A stretch of DNA of 61,035 nucleotides from an uncultured Eubacteriales bacterium (GTDB lineage Bacteria; Bacillota; Clostridia; Christensenellales; CAG-138): positions 1 through 61,035 of the forward strand of contig CADCNE010000004.1 in the NCBI GenBank assembly GCA_902802805.1, written 5' to 3'. Of the stretch, positions 2,524 through 57,502 are shown in pieces; positions within the stretch are counted from its first letter, which is position 1; the number at the start of each line of letters is the position of its first letter. Both the position numbers and the translations under genes were made by a program. The notes under the pieces are model-generated. The model was not told the origin of the DNA and ran no database searches. It saw only the letters and a program-made list of their open reading frames with translations.

Positions 2524-3750
2524 TTAGCTGATCTTTTGTCCGTTTTTGACGACGGTGTCCACGAGGTTGCTGCCCATGCGGTAGCAGATGTAATTGAGAT
2601 CCTCGGCGTTCCAGATGACCAGGTCCCCCTGCTTGCCCGGTTCCAAAGAGCCCAGCCTGTCCGCCCGATTGATGGCGGCGGCGCCGTTCAGGGTGACGGC
2701 GGTCAGCACCTCCTCGGGGGTCAGCCTGTAGCGAAGGCACCCAAGATTCATGACGAACTGCAGGTTCAAACTGGGGCAGGAGCCGGGGTTGAAGTCCGAG
2801 GCCATGGCCACAGGCACGCCCGCGTCGATCATATCCCGTGCGGGGGCGAAGGTGGAGCCGAGATAAAAGCTGGTGGCGGGCAGCAGGCACGCTACGGTGC
2901 CGGCCTTCGCCATGGCGTCGATGCCTGCGGGGGGACAGACGATGAGGTGCTCGGCGGAGACGGCGCCCACCTCACTGGTCAGCTGAGACCCGCCGATGGG
3001 GTCGATCTCGTCGGCATGGATCTTGGGGATAAGGCCCCATTTTTTGCCCGCCTCCAGGATGGTCTTGGATTCCTCGGCGGAGAAGACGCCGGTCTCGCAG
3101 AACACGTCGCAGAACTCGGCGAGCTTCGCCTGGGCTACGGCGGGGATGACCTCCTCGCAGAGGAGGCGGATATAGGCTTCCCGATCCTCCTTATACTCCT
3201 TGGGCACCGCGTGGGCCCCCAGGAAGGTGGAAACGAGGTCGATGGGGTGGCTCTCGTTGAGGCGCCGGATGGCCCTGAGCTGCTTGAGCTCGTTATCCAT
3301 ATCGAGGCCGTAGCCGCTCTTGGCTTCCACGGTGGTGACGCCCAGGGAGAGCATCTCATCGAGGGCCTCCCGGGCTTTTTCAACGAGCTCGTCCTCGGTA
3401 GCGGTCCGCGTGGCATTGACGGTGGAGAGGATCCCGCCGCCCATGGCGAGAATGTCCAGATAGGTGGCCCCATGGAGCTTCAGCCCCAGCTCGTTCTGCC
3501 GCCAGCCCCCGAAGATAAGGTGGGTGTGGGCGTCCACCAGGCCGGGGGTCACCAGCCTGCCCCGGGCGTCGATGACCTGGGCGTCCGTTTCCTCGGGCTC
3601 GCCGGTGCCGACTTTGGCGATGACGCCGTCCTCGATCACCACATAGGCGTCCTTCAGCACCCGGATCTCGCCTTGCTTAGCGCCGCGGCGGGCGGTCTTG
3701 CCCTCGGGCGTGGCCAGCATGCCGATATTCTTGACGATCAGCTTTCCCAT
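2524..3750 (-). CDS. hutI: imidazolonepropionase
   Basis: 408 aa amidohydrolase with DAHTHLIFGGWR and other HutI-like motifs. Adjacent to hutU. Confidence 0.9.
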   Translation of the reverse strand: MGKLIVKNIGMLATPEGKTARRGAKQGEIRVLKDAYVVIEDGVIAKVGTGEPEETDAQVIDARGRLVTPGLVDAHTHLIFGGWRQNELGLKLHGATYLDILAMGGGILSTVNATRTATEDELVEKAREALDEMLSLGVTTVEAKSGYGLDMDNELKQLRAIRRLNESHPIDLVSTFLGAHAVPKEYKEDREAYIRLLCEEVIPAVAQAKLAEFCDVFCETGVFSAEESKTILEAGKKWGLIPKIHADEIDPIGGSQLTSEVGAVSAEHLIVCPPAGIDAMAKAGTVACLLPATSFYLGSTFAPARDMIDAGVPVAMASDFNPGSCPSLNLQFVMNLGCLRYRLTPEEVLTAVTLNGAAAINRADRLGSLEPGKQGDLVIWNAEDLNYICYRMGSNLVDTVVKNGQKIS

Positions 3751-14581: not shown

Positions 14582-14722
14582 TGAACCTTTTCTTGAAAGA
14601 AAAGGTTCAACCAAAAGAACTTAAGAAGGAGGCAATGCTGTGCGCAATGCCTCCTTATTTTTCTTAAGCTTTTCTTTTTCCGCCGCTTTTTCTTTTCACT
14701 GAAAAGAAAAAGCGGCAAAACA
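14582..14722 (+). repeat. tripartite palindromic intergenic element, full-length copy (hairpins A, B, C)
   Basis: Hairpin A is tgaaccttttctt/aagaaaaggttca. A linker aaaagaacttaagaa follows. Hairpin B is ggaggcaatgc/gcaatgcctcc followed by a T-rich run. A second linker is ttcttaagcttttcttttt. Hairpin C is gccgctttttcttttc/gaaaagaaaaagcggc followed by aaaa. It lies between convergent genes. Confidence 0.85.
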
Positions 14723-22757: not shown

Positions 22758-22901
22758 ACGGTTTCCTCCAAAGTATAAAAAAAGCTGTTTATACTATACC
22801 AGAAAGGACGGGGTTTTGCATCCCCGTCCAACAACTTTTTTCAAAAAAGCCGCTTTTTAAAAATTAACAGGTATGTATCTGTCGTACGTATAGCCATATC
22901 C

Positions 22902-22967
22902 CTTCTTAAGCTTCTCTTTTTTGCGCCGCTTTTTTCCTCTTCACCGAAGAGAAAAAAGCGGCAAAAA
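22902..22967 (+). repeat. palindromic element, module-C-only copy
   Basis: cttcttaagcttctctttttt + gccgcttttttcctcttc/gaagagaaaaaagcggc + aaaaa. It lies in the divergent PBP/deacetylase intergenic region, directly upstream of the -35 at 22980. Confidence 0.8.
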
Positions 22968-22979
22968 CGCCCCTCGTTC

Positions 22980-23008
22980 TTGTCAAAAAACGAAAAACCC
23001 TGTATACT
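22980..23008 (+). promoter_or_regulatory. SigA-type promoter of the polysaccharide deacetylase gene (possibly giving a leaderless mRNA)
   Basis: TTGTCA (22980-22985), 17 nt spacer, TATACT (23003-23008). The ATG at 23015 is only 6 nt beyond the -10 element and has no SD. Confidence 0.55.
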
Positions 23009-24151: not shown

Positions 24152-24230
24152 CTTCTTTTTGCTTTGTTTTAAGGTTCGGGGAGTAGGATAGGTCCAACGA
24201 AAGCAAAACGAAGGAAAGAAGGTGTTACTC

Positions 24231-25487
24231 ATGAAGAAGAGTTTGAGGATAGCGACCCTGGCCGTGGCCATCTGTATGATCCTGGGCGCCTGGGCCGTGG
24301 TCTACGCCAAAACGGAGACCGAAAAAAACAGCGCGGCCATGGAAATGACCACCGCCGTCAGCGGCAGGACCGATACGACCACTGGTCTTTCCACGGGGAC
24401 AGCCATCTTCCAGAAAGCGGACCTGTTCTCCGACCGGGATCTGCAGCAGACCGCGGACCTGACCAAGGCCGTGACCTATGCGGTCAGCGACGACGAGGAT
24501 ATCTCCATCACCGCCGCGGGGGTCTACGTGCTGACCGGCAGCGCGAAAAACGTGACCGTGACCGTGGAGGCCAATAAGGACGACAAGGTGCAGCTGGTAT
24601 TGGATGGCCTCGCCGTCACTAACGGCGACACGCCTGCGATCTACGTGAAGTCCGCCGACAAGGTCTTCGTCACCACCAGCGCAGACAGCAGCCTTTCCGT
24701 CACCGGCGCCTTCGCCGCGGACGGGGACGCCAAGGTGGACGGTGTGATCTTCTCCAAGTCAGACCTGACCCTCAACGGCACGGCCACCCTCACCATCTCC
24801 TCCACGAAAAACGGCATCGTGGGCAAGGACGACGTGAAAATCACCGGCGGTACCTATGCGATCTCCGCCAAAGTGAAGGCCATCGAAGCCAACGATTCCA
24901 TCCGCATCGCGGACGGTACCCTGGATCTGACCGCCGGCACCGACGGCCTCCACGCGGAGAACGACGAGGACGATTCCAAGGGCTACATCTACATCGGCGG
25001 CGGCAGCGTCACCGTCAACGCCGGGGACGACGGCATCCACGCCGCCACCGTGGTCCAGGTGGACGACGGCACCGTCGCCGTCACCGCGGCCGAAGGCATC
25101 GAAGGGACCTACGTCCAGCTCAACGGCGGCACCGTCACGGTCAGCGCCCGGGACGACGGCATCAACGCCGCCCAAAAGTCCTCGAGCTACCGGGCCACCG
25201 TGGAGGTCAACGGCGGCGATATCACCGTTTCCATGGGCTCCGGGGACACGGACGGCGTGGACAGCAACGGGGACATCATCGTCAATGGCGGCACCATCGC
25301 CGTCACCGGCAACAGCACCTTCGACTACGACGGCACCGGCCAGCTCAACGGCGGCACCGTCATCGTCAACGGCCAGCAGGTCACCTCCCTCCCCGACCAG
25401 TTCGGCGGCAATGGCGGTCGCGGCGGCTGGGGCGGCAATGGCGGTCGCGGTGGCTGGGGCGGCAATGGCGGTCGCGGCGGGCATTGA
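24231..25487 (+). CDS. secreted carbohydrate-binding beta-helix protein (Cthe_2159-like family) with a Gly/Arg/Trp repeat tail
   Basis: ORF trimmed to MKKSLRIATLAVAICMIL (signal peptide). Repeated motifs GDDGIHA, DDGINA and GTDGLHAEND. The tail is GGNGGRGGW x3. Confidence 0.7.
   Translation: MKKSLRIATLAVAICMILGAWAVVYAKTETEKNSAAMEMTTAVSGRTDTTTGLSTGTAIFQKADLFSDRDLQQTADLTKAVTYAVSDDEDISITAAGVYVLTGSAKNVTVTVEANKDDKVQLVLDGLAVTNGDTPAIYVKSADKVFVTTSADSSLSVTGAFAADGDAKVDGVIFSKSDLTLNGTATLTISSTKNGIVGKDDVKITGGTYAISAKVKAIEANDSIRIADGTLDLTAGTDGLHAENDEDDSKGYIYIGGGSVTVNAGDDGIHAATVVQVDDGTVAVTAAEGIEGTYVQLNGGTVTVSARDDGINAAQKSSSYRATVEVNGGDITVSMGSGDTDGVDSNGDIIVNGGTIAVTGNSTFDYDGTGQLNGGTVIVNGQQVTSLPDQFGGNGGRGGWGGNGGRGGWGGNGGRGGH
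25404..25484 (+). repeat. coding tandem repeat, 27 nt x 3 (GGNGGRGGW/H)
   Basis: ggcggcaatggcggtcgcggYggctgg is repeated three times at the 3' end of the gene. Confidence 0.9.
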
Positions 25488-25511: not shown

Positions 25512-25585
25512 GCACCCTTTCTTGGAAGAAAGGGTGCACACCCAAAGAACTTTGATCGGGAAGTATCGCGTAAGCCGTACTTCCC
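25512..25585 (+). repeat. palindromic element, modules A+B only
   Basis: Hairpin A is gcaccctttctt/aagaaagggtgc. A linker cccaaagaactttgatc follows. Hairpin B is gggaagta...tacttccc followed by tttatt. It lies between convergent genes. Confidence 0.8.
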
Positions 25586-27366: not shown

Positions 27367-28164
27367 ATGAAGCCGCGTCTGCTGAAAGCCTTGGATGCCA
27401 TGAAGCGCTACAACGCCGGGGTCATGAGCCGGGAGTGCTTCGGCTTCGAGCCGGAGGTCCGCTACGACGCCCTGGTGGTGGCCCCGGGCTGGAAGCCGGA
27501 CAAGACCATCCTGGACCCCTCCTTCACCGTGACCCTGCTTTCCCAGCACGCCTATTTCTCCGGCTATCTGGTGGAGAAGGATGGCGTGAGGATCGCCTGG
27601 GCCCAGACGGCTTCGGGGGCCTGCAATGTGCTGGACCACATCTCTATCTGCGCGGAACTGCAGTTCAAAAAGCTGATCTTCGCCGGAGCCGCGGGCGGCC
27701 TTCGTGAGGACTTCCCCGTGGGCACCGTCTGCACGCCGGAGGTCTGCTTCCAGGGCAGCTACGCCGGGGTATATCTGCAGGACAGACTGGGGCCCTTCAC
27801 TCCCTTTGCGCCCGTCTATCCCCCGGACCGGGCCTATGTGGGTCAGGTGATCGAGCTCGGACGGCGGCTGGGCTATCCGATCCAACAGGGGAAGGTCTTC
27901 TGCACGGATTCCATCGCTTTTGAATACATCCATTTGGATGAGATCAGGGCCGCCGGCGCGGAGCTCATCGAGATGGAGACGGCCCTCTTCTACCAGCTGG
28001 CGGACCTGTTCGAGGTGCCCGCCGTGGCCCTGCTGGCGGTGTCGGACAACGCCGCCACCGGCGCGCCGCTGCTGGGGCGGGAGGAGCTGGGTATGGACTA
28101 CCGGCGGGCCCGGGGCTGGGCCATCCCGGACCTCATCTATCACATCGCCAAGGAGGAAAGCTGA
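27367..28164 (+). CDS. nucleoside phosphorylase-family (PNP_UDP_1) protein
   Basis: ORF trimmed to MKPRLL. Motifs AGAAGGL and ELIEMETALFYQLA are typical of the phosphorylase/nucleosidase superfamily. Confidence 0.7.
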   Translation: MKPRLLKALDAMKRYNAGVMSRECFGFEPEVRYDALVVAPGWKPDKTILDPSFTVTLLSQHAYFSGYLVEKDGVRIAWAQTASGACNVLDHISICAELQFKKLIFAGAAGGLREDFPVGTVCTPEVCFQGSYAGVYLQDRLGPFTPFAPVYPPDRAYVGQVIELGRRLGYPIQQGKVFCTDSIAFEYIHLDEIRAAGAELIEMETALFYQLADLFEVPAVALLAVSDNAATGAPLLGREELGMDYRRARGWAIPDLIYHIAKEES

Positions 28165-28165
28165 T

Positions 28166-28687
28166 ATGCTGCTGATCGAGCCCACCATGGAATACGCCAA
28201 GGATATCGAGGCTTATCGCCAGGAATTCCTGGACATGGGGAACTCCATGGATGGCTGCGGCTCCCTGCGCCGCTGTGCCACCGGGGCGGAATGGATCGAG
28301 AAGTCCCTGGCCGGCAAGGACCCTAAAAATGTGGAGCCCGGCCGGGTCCCGGCCACCCAGTACATCTATGTGCGGAAGGAGGACGGCCGGGTGGTGGGCA
28401 TGCTGCAGCTTCGGCACTGCTTCAACGAGTACCTGGAAAAGTACGCGGGCCACATCGGCTACAGCGTCCGCCCCAGCGAGCGCCGCAAGGGGTACGCCAC
28501 CGCCATGCTCCGGGACGCCCTGCCCTATTGCCGGGAGCTGGGCATCACCGATGTGCTCATCAGCTGTGTCGTGGGGAACGAGGGGAGCCGGAAGACCATC
28601 CTGAACAACGGCGGCGTCTACGAATCCACCATCCACGAGCCCGAGATCGGCCGGGACCTGGAGCGGTACTGGATACATCTTATTTAA
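28166..28687 (+). CDS. GNAT family N-acetyltransferase
   Basis: The ATG at 28166 follows an AGGAGGA RBS and lies 1 nt after the upstream stop. GHIGYSVRPSERRKGYATAML is an acetyl-CoA-binding-type motif. Confidence 0.8.
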   Translation: MLLIEPTMEYAKDIEAYRQEFLDMGNSMDGCGSLRRCATGAEWIEKSLAGKDPKNVEPGRVPATQYIYVRKEDGRVVGMLQLRHCFNEYLEKYAGHIGYSVRPSERRKGYATAMLRDALPYCRELGITDVLISCVVGNEGSRKTILNNGGVYESTIHEPEIGRDLERYWIHLI

Positions 28688-28693
28688 TTGTTC

Positions 28694-28757
28694 TTTTGCC
28701 GCTTTTTTCTCTTCAATGAAGAGAAGAAAAGCGGCGCAAAAAAGAGAAGCTTAAGAA
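28694..28757 (-). repeat. palindromic element, module C in inverted orientation
   Basis: ttttgccgcttttttctcttc-aatg-gaagagaagaaaagcggcgcaaaaaagagaagcttaagaa is the reverse complement of the module-C-plus-cttaag-leader layout. Confidence 0.8.
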
Positions 28758-28790
28758 TACAAAAACAGATTGCAGGCATGCTGTGATCCG

Positions 28791-28856
28791 TTTTTAAGTT
28801 TCTTTTTTTAGGCGACTTTTTCTCCTTTGTATAAAGAGAAAAAGTCGCAAAACAAA
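28791..28856 (+). repeat. palindromic element, module C (variant stem gcgac/gtcgc)
   Basis: tttttaagtttcttttttt + aggcgactttttctcctttgtataaagagaaaaagtcgc + aaaacaaaa. It faces the inverted copy at 28694..28757. Confidence 0.8.
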
Positions 28857-33365: not shown

Positions 33366-33395
33366 AAGGCTGTGTTTGTGCACAGCCTTCTTTTT
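33366..33395 (+). terminator. rho-independent terminator after msrA
   Basis: aaggctgtg-tttgtg-cacagcctt stem followed by cttttt. Confidence 0.75.
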
Positions 33396-33458
33396 CTTCT
33401 TAAGTTTCTCTTTTTGAGCGACTATTTCTTCTTTATCCAAAGAGAAAAAGCCGCAAAA
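33396..33458 (+). repeat. palindromic element, degenerate module C
   Basis: cttcttaagtttctcttttt + gagcgactatttcttcttt..aaagagaaaaagccgc + aaaa. The stem has several mismatches. Confidence 0.65.
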
Positions 33459-39749: not shown

Positions 39750-41192
39750 ATGGATAAGAGCAGCGTGATCTTCGGCAACCCCATGGACGAGAAGACCTTG
39801 CGGAAGGCCGAGAAGGCCAAGGCCGGGTTTTTGAAGAAGTTCGGGGACGACACCGAAAAGGTATACCACCTGGGCTTGAAGCCCATCGACCAGATCCCGG
39901 AGCTGGGCATCCAGAATCTGGTGCACAGCGACACGCCCCTGGAGCTGCCGGAGAACGCCCTGATCGTGGGCAACATCCGCATGGGCTTCGGCCATTACCG
40001 GATCGCCATGGCCATCGCCTCTTGCGCCAGGGCCCTGGGGCGGCAGCCGGTCTGGTTCGACCTCGCTAGTTTCGACGCCACCGGGTCCAGGATGATCCGG
40101 CATCAGAACGACCTCTACTCCATGGGGTCGAAGCTCAGCCAGAAGGTGGGCCTCTTCAACAAGCTCTACTGGGAGCCCCTCAACAGCGAGGGCTTCCGGC
40201 AGATCACCTACAACGCGGGGGATCAGAAGAACGCGGAGCTGCTGGTGCCCCTGTTCCGGGACCTCCCCAAGGACGTGCCCTATGTGGGCACCCACGTGTG
40301 GCCCAGCCAGGGGGCGGTCCACGCCGGGCTCACCCACGTGGTGAACGCCATCCCCGACAACTGGCCCATGGGCCTCCACTTGGCCGAGGGGTCCATCCAC
40401 ACGGTCCAGACCCCCTTTGCGTACCTGGGCTACAAAAAGCTCAACGGCATGGCGAAGACCGCTTTGAAGCCCATGCCCGACGGGGACCTTTTCGACGTGG
40501 GCCACTACATCGACCACGAGCTGGTGGAAGGCGTGGAGCACGACTGCGAGAAGCGTATGGAGCGGCTCGACAGCGGCAAGCCCGTCCGGTTCCTCATGAC
40601 CGTGGGCGGCGCGGGGGCCGGCGGGGACCTGTACCTCGCCATGACCCGGCACCTGCTCCCGTATGTCAAGGCGGGCAAGGCGGAGCTGTGGATCAACTTC
40701 GGCGACCATCTGACCATGTGGGACGTGTTTAAGAAGGAGATGCCGGAGCTTAAGGAGACCGTGAGGACCTACTTCGACGACTACGCGGGTCTCAAAGCCT
40801 GGGCCGCCACGTTGGACGGGGACAGCCCCGCGGGCGTCACCGCCTTCTGCCACAGGGACATCTTCGAGGCGGTGTACTCCACGAACCTGCTCATGCGCAA
40901 GTGCGACGTGCTGGTGACCAAGCCGTCGGAGCTGGCCTTCTACCCGGTGCCCAAGCTCATGATGCGGCACATCGGCGGCCACGAGGTCTACGGCGCCGTC
41001 CACGCCCAGGAGCTGGGGGATTCCACCTTTGAGTGCGAGACCGCCGCCGCCCTCGCGGACATGATCGACACCCTCATCACTGACCCGGCCATCCTGCGCC
41101 ATATGTGCAACCGCATCTTGGCCCTCAAGGACCAGGGCGTCTATAACGGCGGCTATGAGGTCGTGAAGCTGGCAATTAAAGGAAGGGATTGA
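39750..41192 (+). CDS. uncharacterised protein with GT-B (MGDG-synthase/MurG-like) glycosyltransferase features
   Basis: 480 aa. The coding call is solid: codon usage, tight spacing, and a GGAG RBS. The functional call is tentative and rests on FLMTVGGAGAGGD and DVLVTKPSELAFYPVPKLM, which resemble GT28/MGDG-synthase C-domain motifs. Confidence 0.5.
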   Translation: MDKSSVIFGNPMDEKTLRKAEKAKAGFLKKFGDDTEKVYHLGLKPIDQIPELGIQNLVHSDTPLELPENALIVGNIRMGFGHYRIAMAIASCARALGRQPVWFDLASFDATGSRMIRHQNDLYSMGSKLSQKVGLFNKLYWEPLNSEGFRQITYNAGDQKNAELLVPLFRDLPKDVPYVGTHVWPSQGAVHAGLTHVVNAIPDNWPMGLHLAEGSIHTVQTPFAYLGYKKLNGMAKTALKPMPDGDLFDVGHYIDHELVEGVEHDCEKRMERLDSGKPVRFLMTVGGAGAGGDLYLAMTRHLLPYVKAGKAELWINFGDHLTMWDVFKKEMPELKETVRTYFDDYAGLKAWAATLDGDSPAGVTAFCHRDIFEAVYSTNLLMRKCDVLVTKPSELAFYPVPKLMMRHIGGHEVYGAVHAQELGDSTFECETAAALADMIDTLITDPAILRHMCNRILALKDQGVYNGGYEVVKLAIKGRD

Positions 41193-41200
41193 AAGGCTAC

Positions 41201-41342
41201 GCGCCTTTTCTTCGAAGAGAAAAGGCGCCCCAAAAGAACTTAAATGGGAAGTATCGCTTGCGCTGTACTTCCCATTATTATTCCTAAGTTTCTCTTTTTC
41301 CGCCGCTTTTTCTCTTTGTCTAAAGAGAAAAAGCGGCAAAGG
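41201..41342 (+). repeat. tripartite palindromic intergenic element, full-length copy (hairpins A, B, C)
   Basis: Hairpin A is gcgccttttct/agaaaaggcgc. A linker ccaaaagaacttaaa follows. Hairpin B is tgggaagta/tacttccca. A second linker is ttattattcctaagtttctcttttt. Hairpin C is ccgccgctttttctcttt-gtct-aaagagaaaaagcggc followed by aaagg. It lies between convergent genes. Confidence 0.85.
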
Positions 41343-41352
41343 ATATGATTCG

Positions 41353-53245: not shown

Positions 53246-53512
53246 AATTTCATACCGAAAGGCAATGAAGGGAAGAGTACTCGATCAGGTACGGTCCAGA
53301 GAGCCCCGATGAGGTGGAAGCGGGGTGCGGATGGGTCGAGGAACATGGTCCCGGAGCCGCGCGGGCGAGATGTAGTCCGCGACGGGTGCGCCCGTCATCG
53401 CGCAGGAGTGTGTTGGCACTCCGTGAGGCGTCCGCCGCGAGGCCGGCGCGAAATCAAGGTGGTACCGCGAGTTTTTCGCCCCTGACTTATATTGGTCAGG
53501 GGTATTTTGTTT
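53246..53512 (+). promoter_or_regulatory. T-box riboswitch leader (probable methionine specifier) with intrinsic terminator
   Basis: Stem I elements are AGAGAG (53298-53303) and GGTGGAA (53313-53319). The T-box sequence is aaatcaaGGTGGTACCGCG (53451-53469). The terminator is cccctgac/gtcagggg (53479-53502) followed by tattttgttt. It sits upstream of metN. Confidence 0.8.
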
Positions 53513-53537: not shown

Positions 53538-54548
53538 ATGGGAAAGCCGATCATTGAATTGAAGGGCATTACCAAAACATTCGGCACGGGGGACGGGGTC
53601 GTCACCGCGCTGAAGGACGTAAGTCTCACCATAGATGAGGGAGAGATCTTCGGGGTCATCGGCCTCTCCGGCGCGGGCAAGAGCACTTTGGTGCGATGCA
53701 TCAACCTGCTGGAGAAGCCCACGGCGGGCACGGTGATCGTGAACGGGCAGGAGCTGACGAGCCTGTCCGAAAAGGAACTGCGCGAGGCGCGGCGGAGCAT
53801 CGGCATGATCTTCCAGGGCTTCAACCTGCTGCAGCAGAAGAGCGTGCTGGATAACGTGTGCTTCCCGCTGCTCCTTGCGGGCGTATCCAAGAAGGAGGCC
53901 CGCGAGAAGGCGGAAAAGCTGCTCGATCGCGTAGGCCTCAGCGAGAAGCGGGACGCCTACCCCGCCCAGCTCTCCGGCGGCCAGTGCCAGCGGGTGGCCA
54001 TCGCCCGGGCCCTCAGCACGAACCCCAAGGTGCTGCTGTGCGACGAGGCGACCTCCGCTCTCGATCCCACCACCACCCTCTCCATCCTGGACCTCCTCAA
54101 GGAGCTGAACCGGGAGCTGAACGTGACCGTGGTGGTCATCACCCACGAGATGCGGGTGGTGGAGGCCATCTGCCATCGGGTGGCGATCCTCGCCGACAAC
54201 CACGTGGAGGAGCTGGGCATCGTGGAGGAGATCTTCCACCGGCCCAAGAGCATGGCGGCCCGGCAGTTGATCGTCCCCAGTAGCCAGGTGCCCCCCAAGG
54301 AGAGCTTTGGAGAAGGGCGGTTCCTGCGCATCACCTTCGACGGGCGGGATAGGACGGACCAGCCCCTGGTAGCGGAGATGGTGCTCCACACCGGCGTACC
54401 GGTGAGCATCGTGTTCGCGGACACGCGGAGTTTGAACGGCCGTCTCTACGGGCAGATGATACTGCAGCTCCCGGAGGACGACGAGACCATGGAAAAAATG
54501 ATGGGATTCCTTCGCCAGGCGGAGGTCTCCTTCGAGGAGGTGATCTGA
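53538..54548 (+). CDS. metN: methionine ABC transporter ATP-binding protein
   Basis: 336 aa. Walker A GLSGAGKST, signature LSGGQCQR, and a C-terminal NIL domain. Confidence 0.92.
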   Translation: MGKPIIELKGITKTFGTGDGVVTALKDVSLTIDEGEIFGVIGLSGAGKSTLVRCINLLEKPTAGTVIVNGQELTSLSEKELREARRSIGMIFQGFNLLQQKSVLDNVCFPLLLAGVSKKEAREKAEKLLDRVGLSEKRDAYPAQLSGGQCQRVAIARALSTNPKVLLCDEATSALDPTTTLSILDLLKELNRELNVTVVVITHEMRVVEAICHRVAILADNHVEELGIVEEIFHRPKSMAARQLIVPSSQVPPKESFGEGRFLRITFDGRDRTDQPLVAEMVLHTGVPVSIVFADTRSLNGRLYGQMILQLPEDDETMEKMMGFLRQAEVSFEEVI

Positions 54549-57406: not shown

Positions 57407-57502
57407 AAAAAGGAGATTCTCTGCAGAATCTCCTTTATCCCAATAAAGTTTCTCTTTTTCCGCCGCTTTTTCTCTTTGTATAAAGAGAAAAAGCGGCAAA
57501 AG
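57407..57502 (+). repeat. palindromic element (hairpin B' + module C); hairpin B' doubles as the minus-strand terminator of the liv operon
   Basis: aaaggagatt-ctctgcag-aatctccttt (57409-57436) is followed on the minus strand by ttttt. Then comes the linker atcccaataaagtttctcttttt. Then ccgccgctttttctctttgtataaagagaaaaagcggc followed by aaaag. Confidence 0.8.

What the first reader, a model, noticed from the sequence alone, without database searches (positions are those of the whole stretch)
14582..14722. Dispersed tripartite palindromic intergenic element family: 8 loci in 61 kb
**Element layout.** A composite element recurs in intergenic DNA with this order:
- Hairpin A, with a Y-rich/R-rich stem: ..CCTTTTCTT / AAGAAAAGG..
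- A linker AAAGAACTTAAG.
- Hairpin B, a variable terminator-like stem.
- A linker TTATT..CTTAAGTTTCTCTTTTT.
- Hairpin C: CCGCCGCTTTTTCTCTTT-loop-AAAGAGAAAAAGCGGC, followed by AAAA.

**Copies.**
- Full copies: 14582-14722 and 41201-41342.
- A+B only: 25512-25585.
- B+C: 57407-57502.
- C only: 22902-22967, 28694-28757 (inverted), 28791-28856 and 33396-33458 (degenerate).

**Context.** Six of the eight copies lie in convergent 3'-end junctions (five junctions, one of which holds the inverted pair). The two CTTAAG linkers are mutually complementary, so hairpin B can sit on an extended stem.

This resembles REP/BIME, BOX, RUP or Correia-type elements, but I do not recognise the sequence as a described family. 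It could be a MITE remnant, a 3'-UTR stabiliser or terminator module, or a protein-binding site.
Basis: seen in the sequence. Interest (0 to 1): 0.7.

Follow-up and report, generated by a model that had tools for sequence, protein, structure and literature searches.

The report
Gene-end repeat with triple-helix-shaped flanks
A ~150-base repeat sits just after stop codons at many gene ends in a group of uncultured rumen Clostridia: a terminator-like hairpin flanked by two hairpins, each built so that three neighbouring stretches could fold into a triple helix, a pattern kept through at least 14 sequence variants.

Summary
All eight loci exist, and the core motif occurs 6 times against 0.05 expected by chance.

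**Anatomy.** The anatomy needs redrawing. Two modules face inward around a length-constrained (48-52 nt), sequence-variable hairpin B.

**Distribution.** The family occurs in at least 13 species-level rumen or gut MAGs. It sits about 10 nt after stop codons and avoids divergent promoter regions. Orthologous junctions in relatives carry an ordinary terminator instead.

**Mirror repeat.** The new point is that the purine tract is a mirror, not direct, repeat of the hairpin arm. This holds in 205 of 243 informative modules and in 14 covarying variants. A direct copy fits 0-1 module. Shuffled tracts match in at most 29.

**Asymmetry.** Imperfections fall mostly on one arm (43, against 9 and 7). 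This fits a pyrimidine-motif intrastrand triple helix, 5'-Y tract-clamp-Y arm-loop-R arm, on the strand running onward from B. It does not fit duplex H-DNA or a purine-motif fold.

**Interpretation.** This is a BIME-like terminator cassette with triplex modules. Whether the fold is RNA or DNA, its function and its means of spread remain inferred. There is no Rfam match, no REP tag and no transposase.

The parts
14582..14625 (+). A-type module. Hairpin TGAACC-TTTTCTT/AAGAAAA-GGTTCA at 14582-14609, spacer ACC, purine tract AAAAGAA at 14613-14619, CTTAAG at 14620-14625.
   Evidence: The tract is the mirror of the arm.
14626..14662 (.). Central hairpin B (AAGGAGGCA...TGCCTCCTT) followed by a T-rich run. 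With the two CTTAAG sites it forms an extended stem.
   Evidence: fold -22.3 kcal/mol for the 49-nt segment between the tracts.
14663..14716 (-). C-type module, variant AAAAAGAAAAG. On the + strand it reads CTTAAG at 14663-14668, pyrimidine tract CTTTTCTTTTT at 14669-14679, linker CC, hairpin GCCGC-TTTTTCTTTTC-ACT-GAAAAGAAAAA-GCGGC at 14682-14716.
22905..22962 (-). Orphan C-type module, variant AAAAAAGAGAAG, with one extra base in one arm and a decayed B to its left. It is the remnant of a full element seen in a 99%-identical strain.
25512..25549 (+). A-type module, variant AAAGAA. Hairpin GCACCC-TTTCTT/AAGAAA-GGGTGC at 25512-25537, tract at 25544-25549.
25558..25585 (.). Hairpin B (GGGAAGTA...TACTTCCC) followed by TTTATTG. 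It is homologous to the B at 41245-41274.
28698..28755 (+). C-type module, variant AAAAAAGAGAAG. Hairpin at 28698-28735, linker GC, tract at 28738-28749, CTTAAG at 28750-28755.
   Evidence: It is conserved in L108 and L113 and replaced by another variant in L109.
28761..28795 (.). Hairpin B flanked by an A run and a T run (AAAAACAGATTGCAGGCATGCTGTGATCCGTTTTT).
   Evidence: Relatives show a compensatory change in the stem.
28793..28848 (-). C-type module. On the + strand it reads TTTAAG, tract TTTCTTTTTTT at 28799-28809 (one C-to-T change relative to the 98% relative L108), linker AG, hairpin GCGAC...GTCGC at 28812-28848 with one bulged base.
33366..33389 (.). Hairpin B (AAGGCTGTG...CACAGCCTT) with an upstream A run and a downstream T run. 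The scan flags it as terminator-like on both strands.
33399..33454 (-). Degenerate C-type module. The tract TTTCTCTTTTT at 33405-33415 is intact, one hairpin arm is decayed, and the clamp is mismatched.
   Evidence: The ortholog in L016 is a full A+B+C element.
41201..41244 (+). A-type module. Hairpin at 41201-41228, tract AAAAGAA at 41232-41238, CTTAAA. The stop codon of the upstream gene (41190-41192) lies 8 nt before the hairpin.
41245..41274 (.). Hairpin B (TGGGAAGTA...TACTTCCCA).
41283..41337 (-). C-type module, variant AAAAAGAGAAA. On the + strand it reads CCTAAG, tract TTTCTCTTTTT at 41289-41299, linker CC, hairpin at 41302-41337.
57407..57436 (.). Hairpin B (AAAAAGGAGATTC...GAATCTCCTTT). 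On the - strand it is followed by TTTTTCTG.
57449..57497 (-). C-type module, variant AAAAAGAGAAA. Tract at 57449-57459, hairpin at 57462-57497.

Best explanation
**What it is.** This is a lineage-specific, BIME-like mosaic repeat that serves as the 3'-end cassette of many genes in a clade of rumen Christensenellales-like Clostridia.

**Centre.** The centre (B, 48-52 nt, free in sequence but fixed in length and hairpin-forming) is a bidirectional intrinsic terminator. Its A-rich and U-rich flanks are the 'tracts'.

**Flanks.** On each side sits a GC-clamped homopyrimidine/homopurine hairpin. On the strand that runs onward from B, the order is 5'-pyrimidine tract, 2-nt linker, clamp, pyrimidine arm, loop, purine arm, clamp-3'. 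The tract is the exact parallel Hoogsteen match (T/U.A, C+.G) of the purine arm. That single strand can therefore fold into an intramolecular pyrimidine-motif triple helix of 6-12 triples on top of the clamp.

**Most likely mechanism (inferred).** A polymerase that reads through B makes an RNA in which the terminator's U-rich tract folds into the major groove of the next hairpin. It may also expose the equivalent non-template DNA strand. This very stable fold would act as a back-stop or insulator and 3'-end cap before the neighbouring gene.

**Shown versus inferred.** Shown here: the family, its anatomy, its placement, the mirror covariation, the asymmetry between arms, and conservation at a given site. 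Inferred: that the triplex forms, that it is RNA rather than DNA, and what it does.
For: **Family and anatomy.**
- A tract-blind pattern scan found 124 unique copies. Every one was followed by a 2-nt linker and a mirror purine tract.
- A-type and C-type modules share one architecture, and the clamps vary with compensatory changes.

**Mirror repeat.**
- Of 249 unique modules, 162 have all three segments matched, in 14 sequence variants.
- The tract is the mirror of the arm in 205 of 243 informative modules and a direct copy in 0-1. Composition-preserving shuffles give a mean of 18.8 and a maximum of 29, against 210 observed.
- In the correct register 89% of tract G positions are matched. In slid registers 5-30% are matched.

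**Which fold.**
- When the two arms disagree, the tract follows the 5' arm in 43 modules and the 3' arm in 9. The tract alone deviates in 7.
- Extra bases number 72 in the 3' arm against 16 in the 5' arm.
- That is what a class IV fold on the complementary strand predicts. H-DNA and a purine-motif fold both predict the opposite.

**Linkage to its own hairpin.** Tract variants of the two modules within one element are uncorrelated.

**Geometry.** The linker is 2 nt in 142 of 150 C-type modules. B is 48-52 nt in 89 of 97 elements, with 34% pairwise identity.

**Placement.**
- Of 84 paired elements with both flanking genes called, 43 are convergent, 40 co-directional and 1 divergent. The background junctions number 100, 413 and 80.
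- The stop codon lies about 10 nt from the hairpin foot.

**Terminator equivalence.** The same convergent junction has an ordinary GC hairpin plus T run in L115 and L073.

**Constraint at a given site.** Between the window and L109, four-fold sites are 82% identical, yet paired or tripled positions of the right module differ at 1 of 44. B shows a compensatory change.

**Precedent.** Intrastrand triplex classes and RNA pyrimidine-motif triplexes are described in PMC4666352. Eleven consecutive U.A-U triples have been crystallised (PMC7102945).
Against: - No physical or expression data exist. Triplex formation is inferred from sequence symmetry alone.
- The triplex-capable strand is made as RNA only after read-through of B, so it could be rare.
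- Neither flanking hairpin is followed by a U run, so no known termination mechanism applies to the back-stop idea.
- Hairpin mismatches show no G.U strand bias (14 against 11), so an RNA-level constraint on one strand is not demonstrated.
- The many variants are partly related by descent, so the number of independent covariation events is smaller than the number of copies.
- Gene conversion between copies could mimic conservation at a given site.
- A 2-nt linker bridging a 5-bp clamp is plausible for A-form RNA. That rests on my recollection of pseudoknot geometry and was not modelled.
Confidence: 0.4

Rival explanations
1. **DNA-level structure.** The same three-segment motif folds in single-stranded DNA (lagging-strand template, or a strand displaced by transcription), like the PIT/BoxC/TMECO intrastrand triplex repeats of enterobacteria. 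It would affect replication, supercoiling or recombination rather than RNA. Because the two modules are inverted, either DNA strand always carries one foldable motif.
For: - Hairpin mismatches show no G.U strand bias.
- The element marks a strain-level rearrangement breakpoint exactly at the module/B junction. The window and L171 are identical up to ...GAGAAGCTTAAGA and then diverge.
- Module variants are shuffled combinatorially.
- Holder et al. link such motifs to genomic instability (PMC4666352).
Against: - Duplex H-DNA is disfavoured by the arm asymmetry.
- Convergent junctions accumulate positive supercoils, which oppose extrusion (established twin-domain model).
- This model does not explain the tight spacing to stop codons, the hairpin B or the replacement by ordinary terminators.
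- A 2-nt linker across a 5-bp clamp is harder to accommodate in B-like DNA (inference).
Confidence: 0.25
2. **Selfish mobile repeat.** The element would be REPIN-, MITE- or PATE-like, and the hairpin-plus-tract fold would be the recognition structure for an unidentified transposase or other mobilising enzyme. Its position at gene ends would reflect only where insertions are tolerated.
For: - Copy number is high: about 10 modules in 61 kb here, and 253 modules in about 0.87 Mb of the window plus loci (which were selected for carrying the element).
- Modules are near-identical across loci and species.
- Presence or absence differs at orthologous sites.
- The organisation as an inverted pair resembles REPINs (PMC3116915).
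- Single-strand HUH transposases read hairpins plus non-canonical base contacts (established knowledge of IS200/IS605).
Against: - No GTAG or CGTC tag was found.
- No Y1 transposase motif was found in the sampled DNA, and genes flanked by modules are housekeeping genes.
- The two ends are heterotypic.
- There are no insertion polymorphisms among 98.5-100% identical strains, apart from one rearrangement.
- Arms and tract are conserved at a given site while loops and linkers drift, and B shows compensatory change. This points to host-level selection or gene conversion.
Confidence: 0.2
3. **No triple helix.** The modules would be plain 3'-UTR stabiliser hairpins, as REP elements are. The tracts would be only the A and U runs of terminator B, possibly also sites for A-rich or U-rich RNA binders such as Hfq. 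The mirror symmetry would be a by-product of low-complexity sequence and the shared descent of subfamilies.
For: - The tracts do flank B like the A and U tracts of a bidirectional terminator.
- The purine tract fits (ARN)n-like A-rich motifs (my reading).
- REP hairpins close to stop codons are known to affect mRNA fate (established knowledge).
- The variants form subfamilies, so the copies are not independent.
Against: - Mirror matching is exact in 14 variants that differ in A-run length (3-6) and in G positions. The per-variant chance product is about 1e-17.
- A direct-repeat reading fits 0-1 of 243 modules.
- The register is exact.
- Neither protein dimers nor Watson-Crick pairing explains a mirror repeat (reasoning in the report).
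- The asymmetry between arms is unexplained by this model.
Confidence: 0.15

Closest known systems
BIME / REP / REPIN elements of proteobacteria
   Same: - High-copy extragenic hairpin units at gene 3' ends.
- Units lie in alternating orientation and combine mosaically with other motifs.
- Many lie within about 15 nt of stop codons.
- Present in some orthologous junctions and absent in others.
   Different: - No GTAG or CGTC tag and no RAYT found.
- The units are homopurine/homopyrimidine with an added mirror tract.
- The two units of a pair are usually of different types.
- The central hairpin has a fixed length.
- The host is a Gram-positive-type Clostridia lineage.
Potential intrastrand triplex (PIT) elements / BoxC / TMECO (Hoyne 2000; Holder 2015, PMC4666352)
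   Same: - Dispersed bacterial repeats made of three consecutive homopurine or homopyrimidine blocks on one strand.
- They combine an inverted and a mirror relation, with class II on one strand and class IV on the other.
- They are associated with rearranged loci.
   Different: - TMECO is G/C-rich (CCCTCNCCC...GGGNGAGGG...GGGNGAGGG) and self-mirror, so it carries no covariation signal.
- Here the motif is A/T-rich and comes in 14 covarying variants.
- It has a 5-bp clamp inside the second 'loop'.
- It is paired around a terminator hairpin and sits next to stop codons.
ENE / MALAT1-type RNA triple helices
   Same: - Potential run of U.A-U with isolated C+.G-C triples (up to 11-12).
- Located at RNA 3' ends.
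- Segment order: U-rich Hoogsteen strand, U-rich Watson-Crick strand, A-rich strand.
   Different: - The topology is a 5' tail folding onto its own hairpin, not a U-rich internal loop clamping a distant A tract.
- The host is bacterial.
- There is no Rfam ENE match.
- Formation is unproven.
Bidirectional intrinsic terminators
   Same: - B is a stem-loop with an A-rich 5' flank and a U-rich 3' flank.
- It sits between convergent genes.
- It is interchangeable with ordinary terminators in relatives.
   Different: - Extra conserved hairpins lie on both sides.
- The length of B is constrained.
- The U and A tracts carry patterned C and G positions matched to the neighbouring hairpin.

Membership tests
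REP/BIME/REPIN | Short palindromic unit, high copy number, extragenic | tested here: met
   253 modules lie in about 0.87 Mb (window plus the first 107 loci), and 3 of 124 pattern hits lie inside called genes.
REP/BIME/REPIN | Mosaic clusters of units in alternating orientation with other conserved motifs | tested here: met
   99 pairs are always tract-to-tract, with 0 back-to-back and 2 tandem.
REP/BIME/REPIN | GTAG or CGTC tetranucleotide tag at the hairpin foot (PMC3733652) | tested here: not met
   GTAG and CGTC each occur in 0 of 253 modules. The reverse complements occur in 1 and 3.
REP/BIME/REPIN | Cognate RAYT (Y1 HUH transposase) gene flanked by the repeats | tested here: inconclusive
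   One search found no Y1 motif by a crude regular expression in 0.8 Mb. One search showed that eight genes flanked by modules are housekeeping genes. Whole genomes were not searched.
REP/BIME/REPIN | REPIN: two near-identical REPs in inverted orientation | tested here: not met
   86 of 99 pairs are heterotypic (A-C).
Intrastrand triplex motif repeats (PIT/BoxC/TMECO) | Three blocks on one strand (Y, R, R, or H, Y, R on the complement) with an inverted plus a mirror relation | tested here: met
Intrastrand triplex motif repeats (PIT/BoxC/TMECO) | Short loops (1-6 nt in the ITxF definition) between blocks | tested here: not met
   The first loop is 3-5 nt. The second connection is a 5-nt clamp strand plus a 2-nt linker, 7 nt in all, and the clamp is base-paired.
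Intrastrand triplex motif repeats (PIT/BoxC/TMECO) | TMECO consensus CCCTCNCCC-N3-6-GGGNGAGGG-N3-GGGNGAGGG | tested here: not met
   The sequences are A/T-rich and unrelated.
Intrastrand triplex motif repeats (PIT/BoxC/TMECO) | Triplex shown physically (CD, NMR, footprint) | not testable with these tools
   None.
Intrinsic bidirectional terminator (element B) | Stem-loop followed by a T run on both strands | tested here: inconclusive
   flags 33366-33389 on both strands and 28768-28788 on the + strand. Other B hairpins have larger loops than the scan allows but fold (median -15.4 kcal/mol) and are flanked by the tracts. 3' ends are unknown.
ENE-type RNA triple helix | U-rich internal loop of a stem clamps an A-rich 3' tract | tested here: not met
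   The topology is a 5' tail plus hairpin. No Rfam hit.
MITE | Terminal inverted repeats and target-site duplication | tested here: inconclusive
   The ends are of different module types. No clean empty site was recovered to define a duplication.

The most novel reading that the evidence does not exclude
Hundreds of gene ends in these bacteria would encode a long (up to 11-12 triples) U.A-U / C+.G-C RNA triple helix. It would form when the U-rich tract of an intrinsic terminator folds into the major groove of the next hairpin. That would make it a bacterial, terminator-linked counterpart of the eukaryotic and viral ENE/MALAT1 3'-end triple helix. It would act as a read-through back-stop or exonuclease-proof 3' cap.
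Probability: 0.25. Interest if true: 0.85.

Novelty: new variant of a known kind. Interest (0 to 1): 0.62.

Why it matters
**Evidence for selection on a triple-helix arrangement.** Natural selection for nucleic-acid triple helices has been hard to show. The known bacterial triplex repeat, TMECO, is self-mirror, so it gives no covariation signal. Long RNA triple helices are known only from eukaryotes and viruses. This family supplies a covariation-style argument: 14 variants, exact register, and asymmetry between arms. A three-stranded arrangement is under constraint in a bacterium, next to terminators and stop codons.

**Ease of testing.** The proposal can be tested with short oligos and simple reporters.

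**Practical consequences.**
- The family explains AT-rich islands in these GC-rich MAGs.
- The elements are likely sites of assembly breaks and strain rearrangements.
- The family gives a marker for this rumen lineage.

Tried and rejected
- **Rfam.** The whole window at gathering thresholds gave 0 hits. The element at E up to 10 gave only far-sub-threshold hairpin noise.
- **Viral contigs.** 0 hits.
- **Small ORF through hairpin A** (TTG...TAA of CTTAAG). Lengths are inconsistent, so this was rejected.
- **Group II intron at hairpin A.** I suspected this from a GTGCG start. There is no Rfam hit, and the insert is only about 105 nt and lies in the hairpin loop.
- **Pairing of the two tracts across B.** The variants are uncorrelated, so this was rejected.
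- **Tract as a Watson-Crick decoy or a direct repeat of the arm.** Rejected (and reasoning in the report).
- **G.U strand bias** as a way to tell RNA from DNA. Uninformative (14 against 11).
- **A 6-mer mirror-versus-direct scan.** Badly designed and uninformative.
- **Count of C before A-type tracts against G in the arm**, as a test for G.G-C triples. Only 34 of 61 were equal, so I did not use it.
- **Linker and clamp parsing script.** Noisy, replaced.
- **RAYT search.** A regular expression and eight Pfam scans found nothing, but this is not a genome-wide test.
- **My first ORF call, 27920-28687.** It had a spurious N-terminus. The real gene starts near residue 83.
Full report
**1. Observation.** The window is about 62% G+C, and the elements are AT-rich islands in intergenic spacers. 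The hairpin-C core occurs 6 times with up to 3 mismatches, against 0.05 expected. A degenerate hairpin pattern hits 6 times, against 0 in shuffles. The short linker AAAGAACTTAAG is not significant on its own. Both strands of 41190-41350 fold into three hairpins, with z-scores of -8.1 and -9.0.

Five convergent junctions hold six copies. 57407 lies between co-directional genes. 22902 lies in a divergent spacer.

**2. Redrawn anatomy.** I read each unit on the strand where it runs pyrimidine arm, loop, purine arm.
- a clamp of 4-6 bp (GCCGC/GCGGC in most C-type copies; GCGAC/GTCGC, GCACC/GGTGC, GTTCC/GGAAC and others elsewhere, changing in a compensatory way);
- a pyrimidine arm;
- a loop of 3-5 nt;
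- a purine arm;
- the second clamp strand;
- a short linker;
- a purine tract;
- CTYARG.

The 'tripartite' element is therefore two such modules pointing inward at hairpin B. In the window plus the first 107 loci (about 0.87 Mb), 99 module pairs are all tract-to-tract. None is back-to-back and two are tandem. 86 pairs are A-C, 13 are C-C and none is A-A.

The segment between the two tracts is 48-52 nt in 89 of 97 elements. Its central part is only 34% identical between copies, and it folds with a median of -15.4 kcal/mol. The CTYARG sites form the base of the B stem and change in a compensatory way (CTCAGG with CCTGAG, CTTAGG with CCTAAG).

**3. Distribution.** The pattern used for the genome scan constrained only the hairpin, not the tract. 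All came from 13 species-representative MAGs of ruminant gut origin, labelled uncultured Clostridiales, Christensenellales, Clostridia and, in one case, Oscillospiraceae. Nothing was found in viral contigs.

Related but more divergent modules occur next to a homologous gene in metagenome contigs that share only 49-57% protein identity (L128, L135). Rfam has no matching family.

**4. The mirror repeat.** In all 124 unique pattern hits the hairpin is followed by a 2-nt linker and a purine tract, although the tract was not part of the search. After parsing 249 unique modules found with profile HMMs, I wrote three strings in the same clamp-to-loop direction:
- the complement of the 5' arm;
- the 3' arm read backwards;
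- the tract.

They are identical over their shared length in 162 modules. These fall into 14 sequence variants: AAAAAGAAAAG (41), AAAAAGAGAAA (35), AAAAGAA (31), AAAGAA (17), AAAAAGAA (11), AAAAAAGAGAAG (10), AAAAAA (5), AAAAGAAA (5) and rarer ones. The variants differ in A-run length (3-6) and in the number and place of G. Each change appears in all three segments.

- The tract equals the mirror of the arm in 205 of 243 informative modules. It equals a direct copy in 0-1.
- Shuffling each tract while keeping its composition gives a mean of 18.8 matches and a maximum of 29, against 210 observed.
- If each informative variant is treated as one event, the chance product is about 1e-17.
- In the correct register 89% of tract G positions are matched. 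In registers slid by 1-3 nt, 5-30% are matched.
- The tract variants of the two modules of one element are uncorrelated. The tract therefore goes with its own hairpin and not with its partner across B.

A mirror repeat cannot be read by a symmetric protein dimer, which needs a direct or an inverted repeat. It also cannot form Watson-Crick pairs with the arms beyond 5-9 nt. It is the classical requirement for a third strand in a homopurine/homopyrimidine triple helix (established knowledge; classes are defined in PMC4666352).

**5. Which triple helix.** On the module strand the order Y arm, R arm, R tract is a class II (purine-motif) arrangement. On the complementary strand the order Y tract, Y arm, R arm is class IV (pyrimidine motif: T/U.A-T/U, C+.G-C). 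Duplex H-DNA would use the two mirror halves.

These models differ in which arm is the central purine strand.
- H-DNA and class II both require the tract to match the module's 3' arm.
- Class IV requires it to match the complement of the 5' arm.

When the arms disagree, the tract follows the 5' arm in 43 modules and the 3' arm in 9. The tract itself is the odd one out in 7. Extra bases are 72 in the 3' arm against 16 in the 5' arm. Most are a single G, in at least six different positions or backgrounds. Mutation should hit the two arms of a DNA palindrome equally, so this asymmetry indicates selection. It fits class IV, where the Hoogsteen strand and the central purine strand are kept exact and a bulge is tolerated in the Watson-Crick pyrimidine arm.

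In that fold the 2-nt linker must bridge the 5-bp clamp. The linker is 2 nt in 142 of 150 C-type modules, and its tract-side base is G or C in 146 of 150. As I recall the rules for loop 1 of H-type pseudoknots, 2 nt can bridge 5 bp across the deep groove of A-form RNA. I did not model this. Eleven consecutive U.A-U triples have been crystallised (PMC7102945). According to the literature cited in PMC4666352, purine-motif triplexes do not form in RNA.

**6. Placement and likely role of B.** Of the 84 paired elements with both flanking genes called, 43 lie in convergent junctions, 40 in co-directional ones and 1 in a divergent one. The background junctions in the same DNA number 100, 413 and 80. 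In the window, 5 of 9-10 convergent junctions carry an element, by my count from the gene map.

The stop codon lies about 10 nt from the hairpin foot on both sides. The distance from stop codon to arm peaks at 14-17 nt for C-type modules. TAA is the commonest triplet 12-14 nt before the clamp.

B has an A-rich 5' flank and a U-rich 3' flank in both directions. One B is flagged as terminator-like on both strands and another on one strand. In elements with a single module, B is still followed by a T-rich stretch.

At the junction downstream of the acetyltransferase gene (window ~28164-28687), close relatives carry the element (L108, L109, L113). A 72% relative (L115) carries a plain GC hairpin plus T run between the same two genes. 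L073 likewise has a plain terminator where the window has the full element at 41193-41352. The element and an ordinary terminator are thus interchangeable.

**7. Evolution.** Between the window and L109, four-fold degenerate sites are 82% identical. The right-hand module differs at 1 of 44 paired or tripled positions and at 3 loop or linker positions. The B stem shows a compensatory change (ACGGATC/GATCCGT to ATGGATC/GATCCAT). The left module has switched variant in all three segments at once. This means either purifying selection at the locus or conversion from other copies.

Orthologous sites in other MAGs show full, decayed or absent elements. Ten strain-level contigs (98.5-100% identical) keep the elements at 25512, 28694/28791 and 33396 unchanged. 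At 22857-22998, however, the window's orphan module is replaced in four strains by a 1.9-kb sigma/anti-sigma operon. In L171 it is part of a complete C+B+A element followed by ABC-transporter genes. The window and L171 are identical up to ...GAGAAGCTTAAGA and then diverge. The module/B junction is therefore a recombination breakpoint.

How the family spreads is unknown. I found no transposase and no REP tags.

**8. Mechanism.**
- *Shown:* the family, its anatomy, the mirror covariation, the asymmetry, the placement and the conservation.
- *Inferred:* the class IV strand is the strand that continues past B. For a polymerase coming from either neighbouring gene the order is proximal hairpin, A-rich tract, B, U-rich tract, distal hairpin.

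I propose that the U-rich tract after B and the distal hairpin fold into a triple helix. The fold would form in read-through RNA or in the equivalent displaced DNA strand. It would give a very stable structure that backs up termination, insulates the neighbouring gene and caps the 3' end.

Weak points:
- read-through RNA may be scarce;
- no U run follows the distal hairpin;
- hairpin mismatches show no G.U strand bias (14 against 11).

The rivals are a DNA-level triplex as in PIT/TMECO repeats, a selfish repeat whose fold is an enzyme recognition structure, and no triplex at all. They are listed with their evidence in the rival explanations.

**9. Comparison and novelty.** In organisation the family is closest to BIME/REPIN. 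In chemistry it is closest to the intrastrand triplex repeats described by Hoyne/Maher and Holder et al. It fails defining features of each:
- no GTAG or CGTC tag;
- no RAYT found;
- heterotypic pairs;
- a base-paired clamp inside the second connection;
- an unrelated A/T-rich sequence.

A 2026 review lists bacterial RNA triple helices only in riboswitches and group II introns (PMC13541005). I rate this a new variant of a known kind. If the RNA version is right, it would be a new class of bacterial 3'-end structure.

Noticed in passing
window 53256-53486 (+): A T-box leader lies upstream of the gene at 53538-54548. It scores 88.8 bits, just under Rfam's gathering score of 93, so the default scan missed it.
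   Followed up: yes
L011, L026, L034, L046, L082 (e.g. L082 4014-4120): A conserved, structured insert of about 105 nt (GGTGCGRAGCCRAGCGCTGCCTGTGGCAG...TTTTGCNCCTGG) sits in the loop of hairpin A in five loci from four MAGs. It starts like a group II intron but is far too short and has no Rfam hit. With the flanking stem it folds at -52 kcal/mol (z = -3.2).
   Followed up: partly
window 22857-22998 vs L167-L169, L172, L171: This is a strain-level island site. The window has an orphan module. Four 99%-identical strains have a sigma-70/anti-sigma (zf-HC2) operon there. One strain has ABC-transporter genes after a complete element.
   Followed up: yes
L112 ~3005-3180: At the orthologous junction, an 86% relative carries a different long palindrome of about 170 nt (GGGGCTGTTAAAAAAGTCT...AGACTTTTTTAACAGCCCC) instead of this element. 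It may be another repeat family.
   Followed up: no
window 24890-25400 (gene 24222-25487): Internal tandem-like repeats encode NGGT(V/I)TV-type units in a Cthe_2159 (PF14262) beta-helix-like protein. The length varies between strains.
   Followed up: no
window 27920-28163: The long ORF 27920-28687 has a spurious, out-of-frame-looking N-terminal 82 codons that overlap the upstream gene. Homologues match only from residue ~83, so the real acetyltransferase gene starts near 28164.
   Followed up: partly
window 28804: The pyrimidine tract of the right-hand module has T where the 98% relative L108 and the relatives L109 and L113 have C. This is a recent single change that breaks one predicted triple.
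   Followed up: partly
loci L001-L107: A-A module pairs were never seen (86 A-C, 13 C-C). The A end often carries a further semi-conserved motif (A/T)TTGAAAGC just outside the hairpin. In the window at 41190-41192 this motif supplies the stop codon of the neighbouring gene.
   Followed up: partly
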